64,000 nucleotides of DNA from an uncultured Dehalococcoidales bacterium. GTDB lineage: Bacteria > Chloroflexota > Dehalococcoidia > GIF9 > UBA5629. The DNA is taken from NCBI GenBank assembly GCA_964548415.1, contig CAZJQG010000001.1:13680-77679 (forward strand), in the 5' to 3' direction. Every line of letters starts with the position of its first letter. Position 1 is the first letter of the stretch. Made by a program: the position numbers and the translations under genes. Under the pieces are notes generated by a model. It saw only the letters and a list, made by a program, of their open reading frames with translations. It did not search any database and was not told where the DNA came from. This document shows positions 45 to 9,748 of the stretch, piece by piece.

Positions 45-647
45 ATGAGCAGTTTTCAGGTAAAGTGCTATATAGCCGATCCCGAGGCGCCTCCTGCCCA
101 CGTGAAGGTAGGAATTTATGCCGATAACGCGGGAGTACCGGGAGCGCTGCTCAACAAAATAGACGATTCTGATAATGTTACTGTCCTCTCGGGCTGGAAC
201 CCGGTAAACTTCGATGCTACGAGTATCGTAAGTAGAACTTACTACTGGTTAGCGGGGATTGCCGATGCCGACGTTATTTCTGTAAAGAGCCCCAATGAGC
301 CGAGCTTGAATAAAAGTGCTGCATTCACAGGTTTCCTGTTCCCCAATCCGGCCGGGACTGGATTGACTACGCCAACTCCAGCAAACACCTATATGTTCCG
401 CGGCTTCTCAAACAGCCAGGCATTCATATTTCTTATGTCCGTCTGTTGTAAGGTAAATTTGCAGCCCAATGCTTCATTCTATGGCTCTATAGCGGGTGAG
501 ACGAATGTCGAACTGTCACCGCACTGCACCATCAATCTCGTAGATTACGATGAAAACGAACTCGAATTTCCCGGCGTTGGCGGGTCTGCTACCGGTCCTA
601 GTACCGGCGGCAACAGCCCGCCAATACTCACTTATAACATCGAGTAG
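45..647 (+). CDS. hypothetical protein lying upstream of the pilus-assembly genes
   Basis: 200 aa ORF. An in-frame stop at 18-20 prevents any upstream extension. No recognisable motif. Same strand and close spacing to the PilO/PilM-like genes. Confidence 0.3.
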   Translation: MSSFQVKCYIADPEAPPAHVKVGIYADNAGVPGALLNKIDDSDNVTVLSGWNPVNFDATSIVSRTYYWLAGIADADVISVKSPNEPSLNKSAAFTGFLFPNPAGTGLTTPTPANTYMFRGFSNSQAFIFLMSVCCKVNLQPNASFYGSIAGETNVELSPHCTINLVDYDENELEFPGVGGSATGPSTGGNSPPILTYNIE

Positions 648-843: not shown

Positions 844-1425
844 ATGAAACAACAAGATACAACAGAAAAGAAGCCGGGCATTCTTGACCGGTTGCCCAAG
901 CTGGGCAAGACCAGCCAGTTCGTGCTGCTGATAGGTATTTTTCTGGTTATTTTCGTGGGTCTGTTTATGCTCGACCGTCAGCTGTCGACCAAGAAAACGG
1001 AGCTGAACGGAACTATGACCAACCTGCAGAGAATACTTTCGGGAGCACAAACTCCGCAGAGTAAGTTCGAGTCGGATCTGGCCGTGGCTACAGCTGAAAG
1101 TGAGGCTGCTAAGGGTGCTTACCCTGACCCGAACCAGGCGCCTGAAATAATGGACAGCCTGTTGGAACTGGCAAGCGCTAATGATATTTATGTTATCAGT
1201 ACGGCCATATCAAGTGATACAAAAAAAGGAGATATCGGCCCTACGCTCACCTTTACGCTTGGGCTTAAAGGACAGATACCAAAGTTTGAAAACTTTCTGC
1301 TTGCTCTGGATTCCAAGCTACCCACTTCACAGATCAGCAACTTTACCTTTACAGTAGCCAGTATAGAGGGTAACTATGACAGCGGCACGGTAAAAATTAC
1401 CGTACTGAGTTATGCAGGTGAATAG
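844..1425 (+). CDS. type IV pilus assembly membrane protein (PilO/PilN-like)
   Basis: N-terminal single TM helix (FVLLIGIFLVIFVGLFML) followed by a coiled-coil/periplasmic-type region. Sits 6 nt upstream of the PilM-like gene. Confidence 0.35.
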   Translation: MKQQDTTEKKPGILDRLPKLGKTSQFVLLIGIFLVIFVGLFMLDRQLSTKKTELNGTMTNLQRILSGAQTPQSKFESDLAVATAESEAAKGAYPDPNQAPEIMDSLLELASANDIYVISTAISSDTKKGDIGPTLTFTLGLKGQIPKFENFLLALDSKLPTSQISNFTFTVASIEGNYDSGTVKITVLSYAGE

Positions 1426-1430
1426 CAGCC

Positions 1431-2828
1431 ATGATAACACTTAATATCGAAGATACTGCTATTAAGCTCATGCTGGTCAGGGGGAGGCAGGTTGAGACGT
1501 CAGCCAGCTTGCCCCTTGAGCCCGGTCTGGTCCATGACGGCATTGTCACCAATCCGGCTATCGTGGGCAGGCATTTAAGCGAGCTTATGGCAGCTAATGG
1601 CATAGGGGAGAAAAGGGTACTGGTTAGCCTCAGTGGTATACATGCCATCTATCGCGTGGTTCCCGTGCCTAAGTTGCCTGGAAATCTAATGGCCGAAGCA
1701 GCCAAGCGAGAAATGGAAAGGGTAATGCCGGTATCACTGAACGAACTCTATACCTCGTGGCAACCAATCAACATATCAGACGTAGAGACGATAATCTGCC
1801 TGGTAGGACTACCACGAAATACTGTCGATGCCATGATAGAGACGTTACGCCAGGCTGGCCTGCAGCCCGACGCCATGGATATCAAGCCTTTGTCTGTAGC
1901 CAGAGTCACGGATGAGAGAGATGCTATTGTCATAAATGCCGACTCGACCGGCTTTGATATTGTAGTCATGATAGGAGGCATACCGGAACTGCTCCGCAGT
2001 TTGCCCTACACATCTGAGGCAGGAACGCCTGAGGAAAAAATAGACGAAGTCAAAGAGGAATTAGAGCGGACGATATCGTTTTATAACTCGAGCCACAAAG
2101 GCGCTGAAATCACCAATAGAATGGCGGCGTTTGTCAGTGGAGAGTTGGGAGAGCAGCTGGCACAAACGCTCGACTATAGGATTAAGCCGCTGCCCCGGGT
2201 GCTATCTTATTCCGACAGTTTGAATATCAGCGAGTATGCTGCCAATACCGGATTGGCTCTAAGGCAGGCAAAAAGTGAACTCAGCCCTGTGCGAGTTAGC
2301 CTCAGCGTAACACCAGAGGTATTTCTACCGAAGCCGTTTCCGGTCATGCAGCTCGCCTCCTGGGCTTTTATCGCCTTAGCCGCTATTGTAGTGATATTGT
2401 TCGGTATCAGAACCGTCCAAACATACCTGGATACCACGATGCTGCAAATTCGGATTTCCAGCGCAGAGAACCAGATGATTGCCAGGCAAGGCACCGCTAC
2501 TTCAGTAAAGCAAATTCAAGCCCAGATCGACGCTGCTAATCAAACTACTGCCACTTTTAAGACACCTCTTGATACCGCCAAAGCTCAACGGGAGAGTGTA
2601 AACGACGACTTGAGCACCATTACCAGCTTGCTACCGGGTATAGTGGATTTGAACTCAATTACTTATGGGACGGATGGTTATTTCGTAACCGGCACCGCTC
2701 CGGACGAGAGCACCATTGTTGACTATGTTCGTGCCTTAACGAACTCTGCCAAGTTCTCACAGGTGTTGATATCCGGTATGAACGAAGCAGAATTCAACAA
2801 GTGGCAGTTTACCCTGAAACTTGAATAG
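1431..2828 (+). CDS. pilM: PilM-like actin-fold pilus assembly ATPase fused to a PilN-like TM/coiled-coil C-terminus
   Basis: The first ~300 aa resemble PilM (IGIDIG-type start, LSVARV...). A TM segment (LASWAFIALAAIVVILFGI) and a Q/T-rich coiled coil follow. Confidence 0.55.
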   Translation: MITLNIEDTAIKLMLVRGRQVETSASLPLEPGLVHDGIVTNPAIVGRHLSELMAANGIGEKRVLVSLSGIHAIYRVVPVPKLPGNLMAEAAKREMERVMPVSLNELYTSWQPINISDVETIICLVGLPRNTVDAMIETLRQAGLQPDAMDIKPLSVARVTDERDAIVINADSTGFDIVVMIGGIPELLRSLPYTSEAGTPEEKIDEVKEELERTISFYNSSHKGAEITNRMAAFVSGELGEQLAQTLDYRIKPLPRVLSYSDSLNISEYAANTGLALRQAKSELSPVRVSLSVTPEVFLPKPFPVMQLASWAFIALAAIVVILFGIRTVQTYLDTTMLQIRISSAENQMIARQGTATSVKQIQAQIDAANQTTATFKTPLDTAKAQRESVNDDLSTITSLLPGIVDLNSITYGTDGYFVTGTAPDESTIVDYVRALTNSAKFSQVLISGMNEAEFNKWQFTLKLE

Positions 2829-2829
2829 A

Positions 2830-3805
2830 CTTTCTGGTTCCAACTTAAGGTAGTGGGTCAATTTGAATTTGACTGAATTTGAAATTTTTTCTGAACGTAT
2901 GTTTGCGGTAAGTACGCCGCAGTATCTTGGATGATTTCCCCAATACTCCAAACATGATCGGTAATTCCCGCCGCCATCGCTGGGGTTACGCCCAAGGTTT
3001 TATGTACCCTGGCAAAATTATAGAACATGAAATGCAACGCTACGGCGTGCTTTAAGTTATCTATTTTCTTTGAGAAGCCGTTGGTTAGCCTGGTGAATCG
3101 CCGCATAGCCATTCTCATAGTTAGGTTCTGTCTTTCAATGTAACTCGTAGATATTTGCGTGCGGTCAGGATTGCCCCTTATGACGTGGGTTTCAGTACCT
3201 AGACATTCCGATGGAGTATAACGCTTATCACCGCCGGGTTCTGCGCCATATAGCTTTATAAGCTGCGCGTAGTCTATTTCATCGCCGAACACATCATCTA
3301 CTGCGTCAAGATACATTCTATGACCGTCAGTAGTTAACTGAACTCTATTGATTAGCCTACGCCTTAAATCGGTTAAGAATTCAGTGGCAAAGCGTAGCGT
3401 TCTAAGGCCCACTAACCAGCAGGGCACTAACTTGATATCGGCATCCATAGCCACGTAAGTCCACACATCGCCATAACCTAGCTTGCCGCGTTTCCTGCGG
3501 GGTAAATGATCTTGCTTCGCATAGCAGAATGACCATATTTCATCGCACTGTAATCTAGTGCTTTTCAGGTTCTTTAGGTTCTTAAATTGGTACAGGTAAC
3601 ATGCTTTGCCTACATCTATTAGTAAGCGGGTAACTGTACCCTTAGCAACACCAGTCATCCGGCAGGTAGCCCGAATCGAATTACCCTCCACTAGAGCGGT
3701 AATTACTTGGGTTCTCTGCCTTAAACTTAACTGGTTCATACCTATATTATACTTGACCGCTCAAGCATTGTCAATAGGGAATAGGCTAATTTAAGAAAAT
3801 AATTG
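2830..3805 (-). mobile_element. IS1-family insertion sequence; ends are approximate and the inverted repeats are not resolved
   Basis: The transposase ORF starts 30 nt after the pilM/N stop. The flanks are AT-rich. I could not identify convincing terminal inverted repeats. Confidence 0.4.
2858..3739 (-). CDS. IS1-family DDE transposase (single fused InsA/InsB-type ORF)
   Basis: N-terminal HTH. DEIWSFCYAKQ matches IS1 InsB DEQWGYVGAKS. TDGHRMYLD matches TDGWPLYES. YIERQNLTMRMAMRRFTRLTNGFSKK matches [26 protein letters not shown]. Confidence 0.7.
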   Translation of the reverse strand: MNQLSLRQRTQVITALVEGNSIRATCRMTGVAKGTVTRLLIDVGKACYLYQFKNLKNLKSTRLQCDEIWSFCYAKQDHLPRRKRGKLGYGDVWTYVAMDADIKLVPCWLVGLRTLRFATEFLTDLRRRLINRVQLTTDGHRMYLDAVDDVFGDEIDYAQLIKLYGAEPGGDKRYTPSECLGTETHVIRGNPDRTQISTSYIERQNLTMRMAMRRFTRLTNGFSKKIDNLKHAVALHFMFYNFARVHKTLGVTPAMAAGITDHVWSIGEIIQDTAAYLPQTYVQKKFQIQSNSN

Positions 3806-3815
3806 TGATTATTAT

Positions 3816-4952
3816 TTATTGATCAGATTTATGTTTGTTCTTAATGATCTCTTCAGCTATTCTTATTGCTGCCCTACGCTCGTTCACGATAGAAGCTTTT
3901 CGAGAATTTGAGTTAAGGTATATATCGCGCACTTCTCCCTCAGTAAGGCATAGTAATTCTGCCAATTCTTTTGCTGTATATTTCATATCGGCTATGTAAG
4001 TTATGATAATTTCATTAAGTAGGTTGGGGGGTTCTTTCTGTAGGTCAACCTCGACCGGCTCACGTAATCTGTAGCCTGCCTTACTCATTTGGGTCCATAA
4101 ATTCCTTGCTTGCCTAGTGGTTATTTCGCTCAAATCCGATGCACGTTTCAGCAACGCAGCCATGGATACCTTCCAATATTGCTTCAAAGTGGCCAATTTT
4201 TCCAAAGATAAATCTCTGAGATACGGACGAATTTCGGACTCAGGCATCAGAAATTCGGAAGCAAATTCATCGGCCTGGCTTTCCATATTGGGATAGATAC
4301 TTTCCTGATGCATAATAATATGACCTACTTCATGACAAAGAGTAAAACGCAAACGGTCTGTAGGACTATATGTATTAACAAAAAAAAGGGGGGGCATATC
4401 AGATTGCCAATGACTCATTGCGTCTATCCTGTTAGTTCTGAAATCGAAGGGGATAACCAGGCCACGTTGACTTTCAATAACATCCACCAAGTTTTGTACT
4501 GGCCCCTTGGGTAATTGCCATCCCGCCCGGACGATACGTGCAATTTCCTTGGGTTTGTCATCAAAATCAGCCAGATCTATTTGCCTTATATTTACTTTGC
4601 CAATATTAACGCCACGAAGTAATTTCCGTATATTCATAGTTCTGATGCTGACTTGCGCATAAACAGCGTTCAATATTTTGTTAGGTATATTTTGCCGCTT
4701 GCGATTAAACATCTCACTAATACTTGGGCCGTACACTTTTTCGTCCTGAAAGAAAAAGGTCGGGGGGTAGCCCAATACCGTCGATAATTTCTTTAGGTCC
4801 GCATCATTAATACCACGCATCCCCCCCTCGACTCTGGAAAGCCATCCTTGTGATACAGACAATTTGTCCGCTAATTCTTGCTGAGTAACACCCCGTGATT
4901 CCCTTGCAAGAACTACCATTATTGAGTTTATTCTTTTATCCTTACGCGCCAT
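3816..4952 (-). CDS. fused XRE-family HTH / ImmA-IrrE (COG2856) zinc metallopeptidase regulator
   Basis: N-terminal HTH (RGVTQQELADKLSVSQGWLSRVE). HEXXH zinc motif HEVGHIIMH with a downstream E (EFASEFLMPE). Its start lies 2 nt after the stop of the upstream ORF. Confidence 0.75.
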   Translation of the reverse strand: MARKDKRINSIMVVLARESRGVTQQELADKLSVSQGWLSRVEGGMRGINDADLKKLSTVLGYPPTFFFQDEKVYGPSISEMFNRKRQNIPNKILNAVYAQVSIRTMNIRKLLRGVNIGKVNIRQIDLADFDDKPKEIARIVRAGWQLPKGPVQNLVDVIESQRGLVIPFDFRTNRIDAMSHWQSDMPPLFFVNTYSPTDRLRFTLCHEVGHIIMHQESIYPNMESQADEFASEFLMPESEIRPYLRDLSLEKLATLKQYWKVSMAALLKRASDLSEITTRQARNLWTQMSKAGYRLREPVEVDLQKEPPNLLNEIIITYIADMKYTAKELAELLCLTEGEVRDIYLNSNSRKASIVNERRAAIRIAEEIIKNKHKSDQ

Positions 4953-4954
4953 GC

Positions 4955-5542
4955 CTATTTATCAAGATCGTTCGTTTTTTCTTTCGGGTAAACACGCCTG
5001 CTTGGAGGATTAGAAGCTTCACTTATCTCGCCCGCACTGGAGACTTCCGGGGATTTCACCGCCGCTATTCTTAGTTCCCACTCATTATATTGCCCTCTGG
5101 GGCATATTATATATACGTCTTTAATAGCAGTCTGTAAGTCATTCCAAACGTACCCAGCAATAACATGCGTAACAGGTGAGGGCATATCTGGCAACTGGGC
5201 TTGCGTCTGATTCATTAACTGTACTATTCGCCTAGTTGGAATATTGCTTGGTCGAAGGCGATAATCCAGCTTCTTAAATCTCAGTTGGAACGAATCGCCA
5301 ATAAAAACGCTAAAAGTCTGGTGTCTACGGCTAAAAAGCAAACCAGGTAATCCTTCAAGTTCCGTGGCAGCGTTGAAGGCCATAAAATCATTAATGATAT
5401 TCGCCTTCGTTCTCTTCTTGAACTTAGACCTGGTTTGCGCATCCATCTTGTTATATTCCTCAATAGCACTGGCGATACAAGACTCGATCCGTTCTAAAAA
5501 CGGACTTAGTATGGCCCTGGCTTCCTCAAGAGTAATCATCAT
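4955..5542 (-). CDS. hypothetical protein co-transcribed upstream of the HTH-ImmA gene; candidate effector/toxin partner
   Basis: 195 aa with no recognisable motif. Good RBS (GGTGGAGG). A sigma70-like promoter and palindromic operator lie directly upstream. Confidence 0.5.
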   Translation of the reverse strand: MMITLEEARAILSPFLERIESCIASAIEEYNKMDAQTRSKFKKRTKANIINDFMAFNAATELEGLPGLLFSRRHQTFSVFIGDSFQLRFKKLDYRLRPSNIPTRRIVQLMNQTQAQLPDMPSPVTHVIAGYVWNDLQTAIKDVYIICPRGQYNEWELRIAAVKSPEVSSAGEISEASNPPSRRVYPKEKTNDLDK

Positions 5543-5561
5543 GCTTTACCTCCACCCTTAT

Positions 5562-5590
5562 AGTATACAATATTGTATGGCTCAAGTCAA
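5562..5590 (-). promoter_or_regulatory. sigma70-like promoter (TTGACT-17 nt-TATACT on the minus strand) overlapped by the 14-bp perfect palindrome ATACAATATTGTAT (5565-5578); candidate HTH operator
   Basis: Read directly from the sequence upstream of the 4955-5542 ORF. The palindrome overlaps the spacer and -10 element. Confidence 0.5.
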
Positions 5591-5644
5591 TGGCAAATAT
5601 GCCATATATTATGCCATTTCTAAGCTAAAAAAATATCGCTATTT

Positions 5645-5860
5645 CTACATCCATCTTTTTTGGGCTGCCCTCCTAGCAATTTCTTGGCGTTGCTCCGGGG
5701 TTAAACGTGCAGCCCTGGCCTTACCGCCCTTTAATCCACCCAGTCTACCAAGCGCAACAGCATGAGGATTCTTAGGGCGTTCTTCCGGTTCAGTAGTGGC
5801 CTGCTTAACAATGGAAGCAGCTAACTGGTTGGTATCTTTCTTACTTGACCGCTTAGGCAT
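5645..5860 (-). CDS. small basic protein with a KGG-type stress-protein motif (GGLKGGKARAARLTPEQRQEIARRAAQKRW)
   Basis: 71 aa. Recalled resemblance to KGG-repeat (YciG/GsiB-like) small proteins. TTGACA-17-CATACT promoter at 5867-5895 and no obvious SD, so possibly leaderless. Confidence 0.4.
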   Translation of the reverse strand: MPKRSSKKDTNQLAASIVKQATTEPEERPKNPHAVALGRLGGLKGGKARAARLTPEQRQEIARRAAQKRWM

Positions 5861-5918
5861 AGGTTAAGTATGCCATATTGTCTCTATGGTGTCAATCCAT
5901 CTCGTTGACAGGCTTATT

Positions 5919-5928
5919 CCCCCCCCCC
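5919..5928. repeat. C10 (G10) homopolymer in a divergent intergenic region
   Basis: Ten consecutive C residues. Placed in the spacer between a TTGACA box at 5905-5910 and an A-rich -10-like hexamer. Confidence 0.9.
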
Positions 5929-5981
5929 AAAATTTGAACGTTGTTTTCCTTAATTAGCTTCAAAGTGCCCATTGACGCCAA

Positions 5982-5990
5982 TGTTATAAT
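5982..5990 (+). promoter_or_regulatory. extended -10 promoter TGTTATAAT for the DUF3800 gene
   Basis: Perfect TGnTATAAT 22 nt upstream of ATG 6012. AGGAG RBS at 5999-6003. Confidence 0.5.
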
Positions 5991-6011
5991 TATCGTATAG
6001 GAGATAGAAAT

Positions 6012-6830
6012 ATGTTGGTTTTTATCGATCAAAGTGGCACTCCGCACCCGAATGATTCAGCTATACGGCCCGTATCGGTAGCCGTTTGTATGCAAGAAAG
6101 TGCATCCAGATCAATATCTGGCAGATTGCATACTCTAAAAAGGGAGTTGATTCGGCACGAAGCGCTAGAATTTAAGGCAAATCGCCTTCTTACAAGGGGC
6201 ACCTTCCGACGTTGTCCAGATAAAAGAGAACTTGTGGAGGCGTTCTTTGACTTGATAAGAAATCTTCCTATTACGGTTTTTGCAGTAATAATGGAACGGC
6301 CCATCTCTATTATACCCAAGACTACTCTTTTACCCAATCAATTTAGGTACTTATTACAGCGCTGTGATCTAGTATGTTCCGAATTACCGGAAATGACTAC
6401 AGTATTGTTTGATGGTGATTGTCGACAATGTGACAATTTGTCGCTGAAATTCAGTGCGTTTCTTTATAGGTCAAATGAGGGGCGTTCCATGACAACTATT
6501 ACAGATACGCCATTTTTTGTTGATTCACGGGTAACTGCGGGGATTCAAATGGCTGATATGGCTGCCGGTGTTATACGTATTTATGAAGAGCAACAATTAT
6601 TCCAGGGTGTGCCTTCTGGCGATTCATTTCTTTCTGCCATAAATAGATACTACAAAATATTAGAAGAGAGAACCAAGAATCAGACAAGTTCAGAGGGTTA
6701 CCCTAGAGCAGGGTTCTACCGTATGCCAGAACGAGACCATTATTACACTCTACCAACAGATCAGAACTCCACCGATATTGAAGCTGCCACTAGTAATGGA
6801 ACACCGCCTGTAAAACCAGAGAGCCAGTAG
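6012..6830 (+). CDS. DUF3800-family protein (variant with IDQSG instead of IDESG)
   Basis: N-terminal MLVFIDQSG and a central GIQMADMAAGVI, characteristic of DUF3800 (conserved DES and Q[IL]AD motifs). Confidence 0.55.
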   Translation: MLVFIDQSGTPHPNDSAIRPVSVAVCMQESASRSISGRLHTLKRELIRHEALEFKANRLLTRGTFRRCPDKRELVEAFFDLIRNLPITVFAVIMERPISIIPKTTLLPNQFRYLLQRCDLVCSELPEMTTVLFDGDCRQCDNLSLKFSAFLYRSNEGRSMTTITDTPFFVDSRVTAGIQMADMAAGVIRIYEEQQLFQGVPSGDSFLSAINRYYKILEERTKNQTSSEGYPRAGFYRMPERDHYYTLPTDQNSTDIEAATSNGTPPVKPESQ

Positions 6831-7097
6831 CAACACTCACAGAGTATTGCACCTGGCTCTTATGCTAAGAAGTATACCCTATAGATATTACTTTGTCAAG
6901 TGGTAAAAGGGTGTAGTAATATAGCATAGTACTAAAATACGTGTCAAGCCCCCCTTAACTTTATGTCCAAACTAGACCACTACCCAACTTAACATCGTTG
7001 CTCGAAATAACCCAGAACTTTATTCCAATTATTATGCTTAATATGGCTCAATGCCGGCAACTTCGACGATATTGACGATTCACCGAGTTAGAGAGGC

Positions 7098-7138
7098 CAT
7101 AAAAGAAGAAGGGGCATACCGTAGAGGTATGCCCCTTC
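7098..7138 (-). terminator. rho-independent terminator downstream of the pilin gene
   Basis: Perfect 12-bp stem gaaggggcatac / gtatgccccttc with a 7-nt loop. On the minus strand it is followed by CUUCUUUUAU. Confidence 0.55.
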
Positions 7139-7236
7139 ACCATTGTTTAATAATCTAGCTGCTAGGCGATCCGATCAAATCCGTTATACAACATTTTCAT
7201 AGTTCAAACCGACTCGTCGGATGCCAGCTACACTTG

Positions 7237-7593
7237 TTACGGGCCTCCTTGCGGAGTGCAATTAACGTCGGCAACCTGTGTAGCACAGTCTGGAACTACG
7301 ATACCATCGGTTCCGAAGGTCCAGGTCCACCTGGGGCTATCAAGCAAATACGTTCCCACCAGAGAAGGAACGTCAGCGGGCAACACTCCGTTGGCGTCTG
7401 CTTGCGCGGCTACTACCGCCGTCTGTACGTTGTGTCGCTCGGTCAAGCAGGCCTGACACGAACCTCTACCGATGAACTGACCCACCGCCAGGGTGACCAC
7501 CCCCGCCAGAGCTGCCAGGATACCGATTACCACCAGCAACTCGATGAGGGTGAAGCCTTTTTGACTTCGCATCGACTTCAATATCTTGTGCAT
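7237..7593 (-). CDS. type IV pilin-like protein (prepilin with N-terminal methylation motif)
   Basis: Leader MRSQKG then FTLIELLVVIGILAALAGV, the class III signal. Likely true start at 7572. Cys-rich C-terminus. AGGAGG RBS. Confidence 0.8.
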   Translation of the reverse strand: MHKILKSMRSQKGFTLIELLVVIGILAALAGVVTLAVGQFIGRGSCQACLTERHNVQTAVVAAQADANGVLPADVPSLVGTYLLDSPRWTWTFGTDGIVVPDCATQVADVNCTPQGGP

Positions 7594-8081
7594 TTTATTA
7601 CCAACCTCCTTTCTTTATAAGCTACAATAGAAGTTATCAATTCTGAGTATCAACGACATCTTATAGCAACGGTGTATCTGTGTCAACGGAAATCGATAGC
7701 TATTTAGTCTATTACGTTAATGAGAATATAGTACTAGTAGATAATATATAATATAGGAAATTAGTCCTAGTTCATTGGTAATGTCTCAATATAAATGGCG
7801 GCAATATTCGCCAATATCTGCTTTATTTGTCAATTATACTGTGACCGATAGTATTTGTTCGGCAGGGTTATGAATCGCTTTATCACTGTCCGGGTCGACT
7901 GATTAGCTTAAAGTTAAAGCACATCCCTGGCAACATAGCTGCTAATTGGTGCGCAGCTCGTCATCGGCATCTGGCTTAACCAAAACAGGTCTTTCTGCGG
8001 ATGCTCGGTTTCCAATGCTAAATTTAGGCTGTTTTGCTATGATATGGTTAATTCCCGGCTGCTTGTTAAAAAAGACATACA

Positions 8082-8945
8082 ATGAACAATAGAAGCCTTG
8101 TTAAACAGATAATTAGTTTGGCTGAGACGCCTAATGAAGCTAATGGCCAAAAATATCCGTCTATCAGCTTAAGAGCGCTTTCCCAACTTGCACAGGAACA
8201 CGAAATGGAAGTCAGGGATGCCGAAATAATGTCCCTTAAAAACGGTGTCATACCCCGGCGCTATCTCCGCAATATTGGTTCATTTGGTATTGCGGGGCAG
8301 GTTAAGCTGTTGCAGTCATCGGTGGCTGTCGTCGGGGCCGGCGGGCTGGGCGGCACCATCATCGAACTGCTGGCCAGACAGGGTACGGGCCATATTATCG
8401 TCATCGATGATGACTGCTTTACAGAACAGAATTTAAACCGGCAACTCTTGTCTACGGAGAAAAATCTAGGCAAATATAAGGCTGAGGCGGCAGCCAGGAG
8501 AGTTAGGCATATAAATTCAGCAGTGGCACTGACAGTATTTATAGAAAAATTGAACGAGGAAAATGCCGATAGATTGCTTAACGGTGCACAGGTAGTGGCT
8601 GACGCACTTGATAACCTGCCGTCCCGTTTCACGCTTGAGAAAGCCTGCCGTTATCTGGGGATTCCACTGGTGCACGGGACAATTGCCGGCTTTTGCGGGC
8701 AATTAACCACGATTTTCCCTGAGGACGCCGGTTTCTGCTGCATTTACGGTTCTTCAAATGAATTGCCGGAACAGGGTATGGAAGTGCAAATCGGTAATCC
8801 CTCCTCCACGCCGGCGGTTGTGGCCGCCTGGCAGGTGCAAGAAATTGTGAAGATTATTACCGGCATAGGTACGCCGCTGCGTAATGCACTCCTGGTACTA
8901 GATATGATGGATGGGACGGTCGAAAGGATTAATATTAGCCAATGA
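8082..8945 (+). CDS. ThiF/MoeB/HesA-family E1-like adenylyltransferase
   Basis: Rossmann motif VAVVGAGGLGGTIIELLARQG...IIVIDDDCFTEQNLNRQ. Its stop overlaps the prepilin peptidase start by 4 nt. Confidence 0.7.
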   Translation: MNNRSLVKQIISLAETPNEANGQKYPSISLRALSQLAQEHEMEVRDAEIMSLKNGVIPRRYLRNIGSFGIAGQVKLLQSSVAVVGAGGLGGTIIELLARQGTGHIIVIDDDCFTEQNLNRQLLSTEKNLGKYKAEAAARRVRHINSAVALTVFIEKLNEENADRLLNGAQVVADALDNLPSRFTLEKACRYLGIPLVHGTIAGFCGQLTTIFPEDAGFCCIYGSSNELPEQGMEVQIGNPSSTPAVVAAWQVQEIVKIITGIGTPLRNALLVLDMMDGTVERINISQ

Positions 8946-9748
8946 CCATTTTATGGATGGTCTTGTTTTTCGTTGCGGGCTCCATGGTTGGGAGCTTCTT
9001 AAATGTGGTCGCCGATCGGCTGCCCCAAGGCAAATCTATTATTTGGCCGATGTCACATTGCACCGGTTGCCGGCGCCCCATTTCAGCAAGAGACAATATC
9101 CCAATAGTCAGCTATATCTGGCTTCGAGGTCGCTGCCGAAACTGTAATGCATCCATACCGCAACGTGTGCTGTGGGTGGAAATCAGTACCGCAATTTTAT
9201 TCGCTTTTGTTTACTGGCACTATAACTTCAGCTGGGAATTGCCGCTGGTACTATTATTTTGCTGTGTATTCATTGTATTGCTGCTTATCGACCTAGAGCA
9301 TGGAATACTGCCGAATAAGATAGTTTATCCATCGATGGTTATAGCGCTGGCGCTGGCCGGTGTGGGCTCCATCTTTGGATTTGAACCGGGATATATAATA
9401 TTCTTCGGCTTTCATTTGTGGATAATTAACGTTCTTGTCGGTGGTATCATCGGTTTCGTGCTGATGCTTGTCCCCGCCCTGCTTTATCGCCTTATAGGCC
9501 GTGCAGAAGGAATGGGTTGGGGAGATGTTAAACTGGCAGCACTTATCGGCTTTGTAACCGGCTTTCCGCTGGTTATATTGGCCACATTTCTGGCTGTTAT
9601 TATTGGTGGAATCACGGCCGCTATTTTGCTACTTCTCAAGGTTAGAGGGCGAAAAGACGCCATACCATTCGGCCCTTTTCTCTCCGTGGCCGCCATGGTG
9701 ACCTTGTTTTGGGGAAGCAGTCTCATCATTCGGCTATTCTTATACTAG
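8942..9748 (+). CDS. pilD: prepilin peptidase (A24 family, PilD-like)
   Basis: N-terminal tetra-Cys motif CTGC...CRNC. Multiple TM helices. GWGDVKLAALIGF catalytic Asp region. Confidence 0.85.
   Translation: MTILWMVLFFVAGSMVGSFLNVVADRLPQGKSIIWPMSHCTGCRRPISARDNIPIVSYIWLRGRCRNCNASIPQRVLWVEISTAILFAFVYWHYNFSWELPLVLLFCCVFIVLLLIDLEHGILPNKIVYPSMVIALALAGVGSIFGFEPGYIIFFGFHLWIINVLVGGIIGFVLMLVPALLYRLIGRAEGMGWGDVKLAALIGFVTGFPLVILATFLAVIIGGITAAILLLLKVRGRKDAIPFGPFLSVAAMVTLFWGSSLIIRLFLY

What the first reader, a model, noticed from the sequence alone, without database searches (positions are those of the whole stretch)
2830..6900. AT-rich accessory island inserted into a type IV pilus locus
The pilM/N-like and pilO-like genes (844-2828) and the pilin and prepilin peptidase (7237-9748) would normally be contiguous. 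Here a roughly 4 kb block separates them. The block carries an IS1-family transposase, a fused HTH-ImmA/IrrE regulator with a tightly coupled unknown ORF, a KGG-motif small protein and a DUF3800 protein. It is visibly more AT-rich than the flanking core genes and has its own strong promoters. This is the typical look of a horizontally acquired defence or addiction island.
Basis: partly seen in the sequence, partly recalled or inferred. Interest (0 to 1): 0.7.

Follow-up and report, generated by a model that had tools for sequence, protein, structure and literature searches.

The report
IS1-family transposon carrying defence-type cargo
The AT-rich block in the pilus locus is one 4.1-kb IS1-type transposon carrying a toxin-antitoxin-like pair and a DUF3800 gene, and it belongs to a large, apparently undescribed group of similar cargo-carrying elements.

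Summary
It is not a mosaic island. It is one transposable element of 4136 bp. Imperfect terminal inverted repeats start with GGTAGTG, the IS1-family GGnnnTG signature. A perfect 8-bp target-site duplication, CAACTTAA, flanks it at 2841-2848 and 6985-6992. The insertion lies 13 nt after the pilMN stop codon.

At least 27 further distinct elements from other metagenomes have homologous transposases (48-83% identity), the same repeat type and their own perfect 8-bp duplications. They are 1.8-5.4 kb long; none is a bare 1-kb IS. Their cargo varies: restriction-modification, GmrSD, Fic, nSTAND ATPase, HipA-like+DUF3037, Panacea, DUF3800 and HTH-protease pairs.

The 71-aa "KGG" protein is not cargo. 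It is a conserved backbone gene, found in 27 of 29 elements.

In the window, the cargo is a RosmerTA-like pair and a DUF3800 gene. The pair consists of RmrA (PADLOC E 2.6e-61) and an upstream 195-aa protein from an uncharacterised family with a weak restriction-endonuclease-like fold.

Transposition activity, toxicity and defence are inferred, not shown.

The parts
2841..2848 (.). Left copy of the 8-bp target-site duplication CAACTTAA. It lies 13 nt after the pilMN stop codon.
   Evidence: (D7). An identical octamer sits at 6985-6992, directly outside the other terminal repeat.
2849..2866 (+). Transposase-proximal terminal inverted repeat (IRR), GGTAGTGGGTCAATTTGA. It overlaps the last codons of the transposase.
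   Evidence: (I13). Homology among four elements stops exactly at ...CCACTACC, after which the flanks differ. It begins GGnnnTG, as in the IS1 family (PMC6807381).
2858..3739 (-). Single-ORF IS1-family DDE transposase, 293 aa, with an N-terminal HTH.
   Evidence: at least 8000 homologues. D66, D138 and E202 are invariant, as is the block ER.NLTMRM.MRRFTRLTN.FSKK, in 27 transposases.
3746..3774 (-). Perfect-consensus promoter (TTGACA-17-TATAAT) of the transposase. The -10 box ends 6 nt before the ATG, so the mRNA is probably leaderless. The spacer contains the box ATGCTTGAGCGG (3768-3757).
   Evidence: 12/12 match; conserved in L027 and L030; the box is repeated in many elements.
3816..4952 (-). 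RmrA-like protein, 378 aa: Xre-type HTH plus M78/ImmA Zn-peptidase, with HEVGH at residues 207-211. Candidate antitoxin/repressor.
   Evidence: PADLOC RmrA E 2.6e-61, matching 11-354 of 378; spr1629-family repressor/antitoxin, E 3.5e-31..
4955..5542 (-). 195-aa protein of an uncharacterised family. It sits 2 nt upstream of rmrA. Candidate toxin (RmrT position).
5645..5860 (-). 71-aa basic protein with a C-terminal GGLKGGKARA..LTPEQRQEIARRAAQKRW motif. It is a conserved backbone gene of the transposon family. Its first 12 nt repeat the box found in the transposase promoter.
   Evidence: 18-member cluster; an HMM finds it in 27 of 29 elements, always on the transposase strand; at least 7968 homologues; no Pfam or PDB match..
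6012..6830 (+). DUF3800 protein, 272 aa. It begins FIDQSG, where L054's DUF3800 has VDESG. It lies in the exchangeable module next to the left repeat.
   Evidence: PF12686, E 3.6e-7; window ~5906-6955 has no homology to the sister elements L116 and L120, which carry NYN genes there.
6871..6947 (-). Two strong promoter-like sites (11/12 each) just inside the left repeat, reading inward. Here they run antisense to the 3' end of DUF3800.
   Evidence: a TTGAC box 30-40 nt from the repeat tip recurs in many elements, where it precedes the small gene.
6967..6984 (-). Distal terminal inverted repeat (IRL), GGTAGTGGTCTAGTTTGG when read inward.
   Evidence: the first 29 nt are 100% identical to the IRL of L116.
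6985..6992 (.). Right copy of the target-site duplication CAACTTAA.
7108..7138 (.). 13-bp-stem hairpin. It is terminator-like for the pilin gene on the minus strand. Before the insertion it lay about 270 nt after the pilMN stop. It is host sequence, outside the element.
   Evidence: (I18).

Best explanation
Window 2849-6984 is a single 4136-bp IS1-family transposon that carries passenger genes (a 'transporter IS'). It inserted into the intergenic spacer between the convergent pilMN and pilin genes and duplicated 8 bp of target (CAACTTAA).

The backbone has four parts:
- the two terminal inverted repeats;
- an inward-reading promoter next to the distal repeat;
- a small basic protein gene;
- a single-ORF DDE transposase at the other end, whose stop codon lies in the repeat.

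Between these sit exchangeable cargo modules. In this copy they are (a) a two-gene RosmerTA-like toxin-antitoxin/defence module, made of a 195-aa candidate toxin followed by the HTH-Zn-peptidase RmrA, and (b) a separately transcribed DUF3800 (RNase H-like) gene.

Shown by sequence: the element limits, the duplication, the family architecture and the variability of the cargo.

Inferred:
- The transposase moves the whole unit by an IS1-type DDE reaction.
- The RmrA/195-aa pair stabilises the element and/or aborts phage infection.
- The small protein is a DNA-binding accessory or regulator of the element.
For: 1. Ends and duplication. Inverted repeats at 2849-2865 and 6968-6984 are flanked by identical octamers.

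2. Exact end of the element. Four homologous transposase loci share sequence up to ...CCACTACC and then diverge.

3. Independent copies.
- L026, L027 and L030 have perfect 8-bp duplications: CATTGCCT, TAAACTTG and CAAAAACT.
- Three IMG/VR loci do as well.
- A motif-free scan (any 16-nt inverted repeat plus 7 or 8 of 8 matches in the duplication) found 26 loci, 25 of them distinct. Lengths were 1766-4164 bp.
- L070 (5430 bp) and L120 (4018 bp) are two more.

4. IS1 features. The ends fit GGnnnTG (PMC6807381). D66, D138, E202 and the ER.N..R..FSK block are invariant. NCBIfam transpos_IS1 gives E 1.1e-11.

5. Small gene. It is present in 27 of 29 elements on the transposase strand.

6. Modular cargo. 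L116 and L120 share a 3-kb block (73-75% nucleotide identity) covering small gene, 195-aa gene, rmrA and tnp, but they carry NYN in place of DUF3800.

7. RosmerTA-like pair. PADLOC RmrA gives E 2.6e-61. The HExxH motif is present. A 195-aa family member also sits upstream of the L097 RmrA-like gene. Published RosmerTA systems pair a Zn-peptidase antitoxin with varied toxins of unknown function.

8. Foreign composition.
Against: - No empty site was found. Every contig carrying this exact pilMN or pilin also carries the element at 100% identity, so recent mobility in this population is not shown.
- The two terminal repeats differ by a 1-nt indel and several mismatches, and they look like two different subtypes. 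This copy may be a recombinant and could be impaired.
- Transposase matches to the curated IS1 models fall below their cut-offs.
- The 195-aa protein matches no RmrT model. It also lacks a canonical PD-(D/E)xK triad.
- About 40 surveyed loci gave no repeat-plus-duplication call.
Confidence: 0.88

Rival explanations
1. It is a mosaic defence or addiction island built by several independent acquisitions, and the IS1 transposase is only one resident.
For: - The cargo is heterogeneous and has separate promoters.
- The DUF3800 module is not shared with the sister elements, so the content did arise in more than one step.
Against: - One pair of family-typical inverted repeats and one 8-bp duplication enclose all five genes.
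- The same architecture recurs in at least 27 other elements at unrelated sites.
- The mosaicism lies inside the transposon, not at the chromosomal site.
Confidence: 0.06
2. An ordinary ~1-kb IS sits next to unrelated genes, and the distal repeat at 6967-6984 is a leftover solo end of a second, decayed IS copy. This would be a former composite transposon.
For: - The two repeats belong to slightly different subtypes (GGTCTAG against GGGTCAAT).
- Several assemblies break near 3758-3869, just past the transposase.
Against: - There is no repeat-like sequence between the transposase start and rmrA.
- There is no transposase remnant near 6984.
- No evaluable family member has a repeat within 0.8 kb upstream of its transposase.
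- The octamers flanking the outer ends match perfectly.
Confidence: 0.04
3. It is a remnant of a prophage or integrative element. The HTH-ImmA/IrrE protein would be its immunity regulator, as ImmR/ImmA are in ICEBs1.
For: - The 378-aa protein matches phrog_2439, 'transcriptional regulator', at E 1.1e-83.
- ImmA-type proteases regulate mobile elements.
Against: - There is no integrase, no structural or conjugation gene and no adjacent tRNA.
- The unit is only 4.1 kb and is bounded by transposon ends.
- The full-length PADLOC RmrA match and the toxin-like upstream partner fit a TA module better.
Confidence: 0.02

Closest known systems
IS1 family insertion sequences (classical IS1; ISfinder single-ORF and ISMhu11 subgroups)
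   Same: - DDE transposase with the IS1-type C-terminal ER.N..R...FSK block.
- Terminal repeats starting GGnnnTG.
- An 8-bp target duplication.
- A promoter next to the left repeat driving a small basic protein, positionally like insA.
   Different: - 4.1 kb instead of about 0.77 kb.
- A single transposase ORF without the insA-insB' frameshift.
- The small protein has no detectable similarity to InsA or any Pfam family, and cargo separates it from the transposase.
- Scores against the curated IS1 models are below cut-off.
- I recall, but could not verify here, that ISfinder lists ISMhu11-type IS1 members of up to 4.6 kb with passenger genes.
Transporter IS (tIS) and unit transposons with defence cargo, e.g. 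Tn7-like elements (Benler et al., bioRxiv 10.1101/2021.08.23.457393, seen)
   Same: A single pair of transposon ends encloses a transposase plus variable defence, TA and restriction-modification cargo.
   Different: - Much smaller, with one transposase gene.
- No target selector and no conserved attachment site.
- The recurring partner is a ~75-aa protein rather than TnsB/C/D-type proteins.
RosmerTA (RmrT/RmrA) toxin-antitoxin phage-defence systems (Millman et al. 2022; Ernits et al. 2023, PMC10440598)
   Same: A two-gene operon: a protein of unknown function is followed by an HTH + ImmA/M78 Zn-peptidase that matches the RmrA profiles over its full length. The partner differs between related systems.
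   Different: - The 195-aa partner matches none of the PADLOC RmrT models.
- It has a soluble alpha/beta, restriction-endonuclease-like predicted fold, unlike the membrane-depolarising RmrT of phage Kita.
- Toxicity and defence are untested.
DUF3800 proteins (retron type VII effectors; TPR-DUF3800 next to Cas12a2/a3; DUF3800-associated RNA motifs)
   Same: The Pfam DUF3800 domain, on a mobile element alongside defence-type genes.
   Different: - A stand-alone gene with no reverse transcriptase and no CRISPR genes among the element's ORFs.
- No Rfam DUF3800 RNA motif.
- The N-terminal motif reads DQSG, where the DUF3800 of L054 has DESG.

Membership tests
IS1 family (ISfinder definition) | DDE transposase related to IS1 InsB | tested here: inconclusive
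   NCBIfam transpos_IS1 gives E 1.1e-11 but only 45 bits against a cut-off of 100. Pfam DDE_Tnp_IS1 gives 21.8 bits against 24.1. D66, D138, E202 and the ER.NL..R....R..R....FSK block are invariant. Sources name the homologues 'IS1 family transposase'.
IS1 family (ISfinder definition) | Terminal inverted repeats beginning GGnnnTG | tested here: met
   Both ends read GGTAGTG. The rule is cited from PMC6807381.
IS1 family (ISfinder definition) | Target-site duplication of 8-9 bp | tested here: met
   8 bp here and in at least 27 other elements. The 8-9 bp rule is from my own knowledge of ISfinder.
IS1 family (ISfinder definition) | insA/insB' organisation with a programmed -1 frameshift and a length of about 0.7-1.2 kb (classical subgroup) | tested here: not met
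   A single 293-aa ORF in a 4136-bp element. It therefore does not belong to the classical subgroup. It may fit the single-ORF or ISMhu11-type subgroup, which I could not check (one search found no paper).
Transporter IS (IS with passenger genes) | One transposase and one pair of IS-type repeats enclosing genes not needed for transposition, flanked by a target duplication | tested here: met
   Cargo differs between elements that share the backbone.
Composite transposon | Two IS copies flanking the cargo | tested here: not met
   There is only one transposase and one copy of each end in the 64-kb window.
RosmerTA | RmrA: an HTH plus ImmA/M78 Zn-peptidase antitoxin | tested here: met
   PADLOC RmrA E 2.6e-61, matching 11-354 of 378. 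HTH_3 and Peptidase_M78. HEVGH at 207-211.
RosmerTA | An adjacent co-transcribed toxin gene (RmrT) | tested here: inconclusive
   The 195-aa ORF is 2 nt upstream on the same strand. The pairing is conserved in L116-L122, and a distant member pairs with the L097 RmrA-like gene. Neither it nor 72 relatives hit any PADLOC RmrT model.
RosmerTA | Toxicity neutralised by RmrA, and protection against phage | not testable with these tools
   This needs expression and plaque assays.
DUF3800 (PF12686) | A match to the Pfam model above its gathering score | tested here: met
   31.4 bits against 21, E 3.6e-7, covering residues 2-189.
Retron type VII (RT + ncRNA + DUF3800) | A reverse transcriptase and an msr/msd RNA next to DUF3800 | tested here: not met
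   No RT ORF in the element. No Rfam hit in 2600-7800 at E<=1. Only a weak hit to PADLOC DUF3800_VII, E 0.005.

The most novel reading that the evidence does not exclude
The window holds one member of a very large clade of IS1-derived 'defence shuttles' (thousands of protein clusters) that is apparently undescribed.
- The clade has a fixed backbone: a promoter embedded next to the left repeat, a new ~75-aa basic protein, and a leaderless single-ORF transposase.
- The sequence box ATGCTTGAGCGG is duplicated at the head of the small gene and in the transposase promoter, so the two copies bracket the main cargo slot.
- The box pair and the small protein could form a dedicated system for regulating the element or for swapping TA, restriction and defence cassettes, somewhat like a miniature integron on a transposon.
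Probability: 0.3. Interest if true: 0.8.

Novelty: new variant of a known kind. Interest (0 to 1): 0.58.

Why it matters
- It turns a vague 'AT-rich island' into a precisely bounded mobile element with a testable mechanism.
- IS1-type elements, usually thought of as minimal 0.8-kb insertion sequences, include a widespread lineage that always carries extra genes. The lineage is found in Dehalococcoidia and other Chloroflexota, and element GC of 37-63% suggests a wider host range.
- That lineage ferries toxin-antitoxin, restriction-modification and other anti-phage modules. This gives a simple route for the spread of defence genes in uncultured, slow-growing lineages where plasmids and phages are poorly known.
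- It yields three candidates for experiments:
  - a ~75-aa protein family (at least 7968 clusters) tied to transposition;
  - a ~200-aa family (1252 cluster representatives) that is a candidate RosmerTA toxin;
  - a repeated box that may regulate the element or exchange cargo.
- Exact ends and duplications also make these elements useful for finding new defence genes by 'guilt by cargo'.

Tried and rejected
- Empty site and variants. Exact-protein look-ups for pilMN, the transposase, DUF3800 and the pilin returned only the same 100%-identical locus from about 8 assemblies. No empty site and no second insertion site were found.
- Repeat upstream of the transposase. I looked for a left repeat just upstream of the transposase, which would indicate a simple 1-kb IS. 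None was found in the window or in relatives.
- pilT. A pilT or Wzy_C-like gene was sought in the window by tblastn. None was found, so there is no evidence that the element displaced pilT.
- Second copy. No second copy of any element gene or end exists in the 64-kb window.
- Small protein. Pfam scans of the 16 aligned members at E<=1 and a PDB profile search at E<=1 returned nothing meaningful.
- 195-aa family. Pfam and PADLOC scans of 73 members and a PDB profile search of their alignment gave nothing. A first AlphaFold run with 4 sequences was unusable (pLDDT 46.6). The run with 73 sequences was good.
- Fold search. The AFDB50 library was unavailable. BFVD gave no significant match.
- Rfam. 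The scan for DUF3800-associated or other RNAs was negative.
- Literature. ISMhu11 gave 0 papers. Searches for IS1 with passenger or defence cargo gave nothing specific.
- Organism.

Full report
**1. The observation**

- 844-1425: a PilO/GspM-like protein, a weak match only.
- 1431-2828: a PilM-PilN fusion.
- 2858-3739(-): an IS1-like transposase.
- 3816-4952(-): a 378-aa HTH_3 + Peptidase_M78 protein.
- 4955-5542(-): a 195-aa ORF ending 2 nt before the previous gene, with no family match in Pfam, NCBIfam, PADLOC or PHROGs.
- 5645-5860(-): a 71-aa basic protein.
- 6012-6830(+): a DUF3800 protein.
- 7237-7593(-): a prepilin.
- 8082-8945: a ThiF-family gene.
- 8942-9748: the prepilin peptidase.

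The block has 42.7% GC against 49.8% for the rest of the window. It is the lowest of all 4-kb windows. GC3 of its genes is 0.36-0.46, against 0.49-0.62 for the neighbours. Promoter-like sites are enriched, with 18 found against 10.8 +/- 3.5 expected, and they include a perfect consensus before the transposase.

**2. What it is**

The repeat search gave the key lead. An inverted repeat, GGTAGTGGGTCAATTTG at 2849-2865 and CAAACTAGACCACTACC at 6968-6984, has the octamer CAACTTAA immediately outside each arm (2841-2848 and 6985-6992). That is the signature of a transposon with an 8-bp target-site duplication.

I tested this with relatives. The transposase has at least 8000 homologous clusters, which their sources name 'IS1 family transposase'. 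Most named ones come from Dehalococcoidia and Chloroflexi MAGs.

I fetched three loci with homologues of 81-83% identity. Sequence similarity to the window runs through the transposase and stops exactly at ...CCACTACC, after which every locus differs. In each locus the matching repeat, GGT(A/G)GTGG(G)TC.A.TTTGGACATAA, lies 3.2-3.4 kb upstream. It is flanked by a perfect 8-bp copy of the sequence that follows the other end: CATTGCCT, TAAACTTG and CAAAAACT.

Scans of IMG/VR and of JGI metagenomes with the transposase added many more elements.
- A motif-based script and a motif-free one (any 16-nt inverted repeat with at most 3 mismatches, plus at least 7 of 8 matches in the duplication) agree closely. 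The motif-free scan added only L053. It dropped L108 and the L111 group, which the first script had listed without a full 8-bp match.
- The motif-free scan called 26 loci, 25 of them distinct, each with a perfect 8-bp duplication.
- These elements are 1766-4164 bp long, and their transposases are 48-83% identical to the window's.
- L120 (4018 bp) and L070 (5430 bp, with cargo on both sides of the transposase) are two more.
- No evaluable locus has a repeat closer than about 0.8 kb upstream of the transposase, so the sample contains no bare IS.

The chance of one adjacent 8-bp match is about 1.5e-5. More than 25 independent perfect matches exclude coincidence.

**3. Family assignment**

Several features fit the IS1 family.
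- The ends fit GGnnnTG, noted as an IS1-family feature in PMC6807381.
- The 8-bp duplication fits the IS1 rule of 8-9 bp (my own knowledge of ISfinder).
- In an alignment of 27 transposases, D66, D138 and E202 are invariant. So is the block ER.NLTMRM.MRRFTRLTN.FSKK, which resembles the C-terminal signature of IS1 InsB as I recall it.

Other features do not fit the classical subgroup. Matches to the curated IS1 models are significant but below their cut-offs. The element has a single transposase ORF, and it is four to five times longer than IS1.

I therefore file it as an IS1-family element of the passenger-carrying ('transporter IS') kind, not as classical IS1. I recall that ISfinder lists an ISMhu11 subgroup of up to 4.6 kb. 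I could not verify this, because the held literature has nothing on it.

**4. Backbone and cargo**

I clustered the ORFs of 27 elements. The 71-aa 'KGG' protein falls in an 18-member cluster. An HMM built from that cluster finds the gene in 27 of 29 elements. In 26 the match is full-length, and in L026 only a remnant remains. The gene is always on the transposase strand, and it is usually the first gene after the distal repeat.

The protein family has at least 7968 clusters, all annotated 'hypothetical'. It matches no Pfam family and no solved structure. It is therefore part of the element's backbone, not cargo.

Its conserved features are an N-terminal KRPRD.NQLAK.IVD.ATGE segment and a C-terminal GG.KGG.ARA..LTPE.R.EIAKKAA.ARW segment.

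A TTGAC box 30-40 nt inside the distal repeat recurs across elements. In the window it is part of two 11/12 promoter-like sites at 6947-6918 and 6899-6871.

Both the small gene and the transposase gene have a -10 box ending 6-7 nt before the ATG. This suggests leaderless mRNAs (inference).

**5. Cargo elsewhere in the family**

Cargo in other elements is diverse and typical of conflict systems.
- L034: an N6/N4 DNA methylase with an unknown partner.
- L046: a SmaI-type endonuclease with a methyltransferase.
- L081: a C5-methylase with a GIY-YIG protein.
- L086: GmrSD-HNH plus NYN.
- L108: Fic.
- L027 and L033: nSTAND1 ATPases.
- L072 and L090: HipA-like kinase plus DUF3037.
- L052: a Panacea-domain protein.
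- L088: an SDH-type ClpP-like protease.
- L049: a P63C protein.
- L030: DUF4325.
- L054: another DUF3800.
- L078, L091, L097 and L111: HTH-peptidase pairs.

**6. The window's cargo**

*The RmrA pair.* The 378-aa protein matches PADLOC RmrA profiles over its full length (best E 2.6e-61). It also matches NCBIfam 'spr1629 family repressor/antitoxin' (E 3.5e-31), and it keeps the HEVGH motif. RosmerTA systems were described as a Zn-peptidase antitoxin paired with a toxin of unknown function. Deleting rmrA could not be tolerated. RmrA partners with many different toxins, and in 58% of cases the toxin gene comes first (PMC10440598).

*The 195-aa partner.* It occupies the toxin position.
- The word-indexed search found only four close clusters.
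- The exhaustive phmmer search found 1252 cluster representatives, all about 200 aa and matching over the full length.
- An HMM of the family also hits the 202-aa ORF that overlaps the start of the RmrA-like gene in L097, an element whose transposase is only 53% identical to the window's. The pairing is therefore old.
- With a 73-sequence alignment, AlphaFold gives a confident model (pLDDT 91.3, pTM 0.80). It shows two long N-terminal helices and an alpha/beta core.
- Foldseek's top seven PDB matches are all EcoRV (E 0.01-0.06, probability up to 0.84).
- These scores are modest. The nearly invariant residues are D52, K90, T103, Q112, G130, Y131, C147, P148 and W155, and they do not form a canonical PD-(D/E)xK triad.

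I therefore call it 'restriction-endonuclease-like fold, nuclease activity possible', at low to moderate confidence.

*The DUF3800 gene.* It lies in a module (window ~5906-6955) that has no counterpart in the sister elements L116 and L120. Those two share the remaining 3 kb at 73-75% nucleotide identity, but they carry NYN genes at that position, in either orientation. DUF3800 has been described as RNase H-like and linked to mobile elements and defence. It is the accessory gene of type VII retrons (PADLOC model name; PMC7736814 listed). It is also associated with 11 structured RNA motifs. The window has no reverse transcriptase ORF and no Rfam hit.

**7. Effect on the pilus locus**

Removing the element and one copy of the duplication reconstructs the sequence ...TGAATAGACTTTCTGGTTCCAACTTAACATCGTTGC.... 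This is a clean intergenic insertion 13 nt after the pilMN stop. A 13-bp-stem hairpin at 7108-7138, terminator-like for the pilin gene, lies beyond it. No gene is interrupted. Any effect on pilMN transcript termination is untested.

In the only two genome relatives found, a pilT-type ATPase sits between pilMN and the pilin, and a Wzy_C/TPR gene replaces ThiF. These are a Dehalococcoidales MAG (43% PilMN identity) and a Dehalococcoidia MAG (36%). The window has no pilT. The clean duplication argues that the element did not remove it.

**8. Mechanism, with status**

Shown:
- the boundaries and the duplication;
- the family-wide architecture;
- the modular cargo.

Inferred from family knowledge:
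- DDE-mediated IS1-type transposition of the whole unit.
- The RmrA pair acts as an addiction and/or abortive-infection module that also favours retention of the element.

Speculative:
- The small protein binds the ends or the promoter box and regulates the element, an InsA-like role without homology to InsA.
- The two promoter-like sites next to the distal repeat make an antisense or small RNA opposite DUF3800.

**9. An unexplained feature**

The box ATGCTTGAGCGG(TCAAGTA) occurs twice as a direct repeat. One copy is in the spacer of the transposase promoter. The other is at or just before the start of the small gene. I saw this in the window (3768-3757 and 5860-5849) and in at least seven other elements. 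The two copies bracket the main cargo slot. They could be a shared operator, a duplication scar or a recombination site for cargo exchange.

**10. Caveats**

- Every public contig with this exact locus is identical, so there is no direct evidence of recent movement.
- The window's two repeats belong to different subtypes and differ by an indel. This suggests a recombinant element.
- All functional statements about the cargo rest on homology and context.

**11. Verdict**

The finding is real and its 'foreign DNA' reading is right. The thing itself is more specific than an island. It is a complete IS1-family cargo transposon, and it belongs to a large family with a conserved small-protein backbone gene that I could not find described. 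I rate it a new variant of a known kind, of moderate to good interest for mobile-element and defence-system research.

Noticed in passing
window 3757-3768 and 5849-5860 (minus strand); also L049, L052, L054, L057, L072, L116, L120: A 12-19-nt box, ATGCTTGAGCGG(TCAAGTA), is directly repeated. One copy is in the transposase promoter spacer, and the other is at the head of the small basic-protein gene. The two copies bracket the main cargo slot in many elements of the family.
   Followed up: partly
window 6820-6947: Two 11/12 promoter-like sites on the minus strand sit just inside the distal repeat. They point into a 19-nt-arm hairpin (6820-6860) and run antisense to the 3' end of DUF3800. This could be an antisense or small RNA. 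DUF3800 genes are known to associate with structured RNAs, but no Rfam family matched.
   Followed up: partly
window 8082-8945, compared with L024 4885-7395 and L025 13072-15567: A ThiF-family (E1-like adenylyltransferase) gene lies between the pilin and the prepilin peptidase and overlaps the peptidase start by 4 nt. Two Dehalococcoidia relatives have an ~830-aa Wzy_C/TPR (O-antigen-ligase-like) gene at that position. This suggests a different pilin modification.
   Followed up: no
L024 2881-3951, L025 11431-12495; window 1-64000: Relatives carry a pilT-type ATPase between pilMN and the pilin. The window and the 8.5 kb upstream of it (L001) have only the 826-aa PilB-like ATPase and no pilT.
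   Followed up: partly
L002, L006 (end at window 3758); L012, L013 (end at 3869); L005 (4008); L004 (4955): Independent assemblies of the same population break repeatedly between the transposase promoter and the cargo. This would be expected if sister elements with the same transposase but different cargo coexist in those samples.
   Followed up: no
L049 element 918-1958 (minus strand): A 346-aa P63C-domain protein starts with the same KGGKARA..LSPE.R.EIA...ALARW motif that forms the C-terminus of the small backbone protein. phrog_2384 matches that motif too, so the motif is a portable module.
   Followed up: no
window 45-647: A 200-aa ORF upstream of the pilO-like gene has no hit in Pfam or NCBIfam. 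In the longer contig (L001) a 563-aa ORF with no Pfam hit on record ends about 200 nt upstream of the pilO-like gene, and several small genes without Pfam hits lie earlier in the locus. These may be lineage-specific pilus components.
   Followed up: no
L026 1-1568: About 2 kb outside the L026 transposon lies another Peptidase_M78 + DUF4411 pair. ImmA-type TA modules therefore recur around these elements.
   Followed up: no
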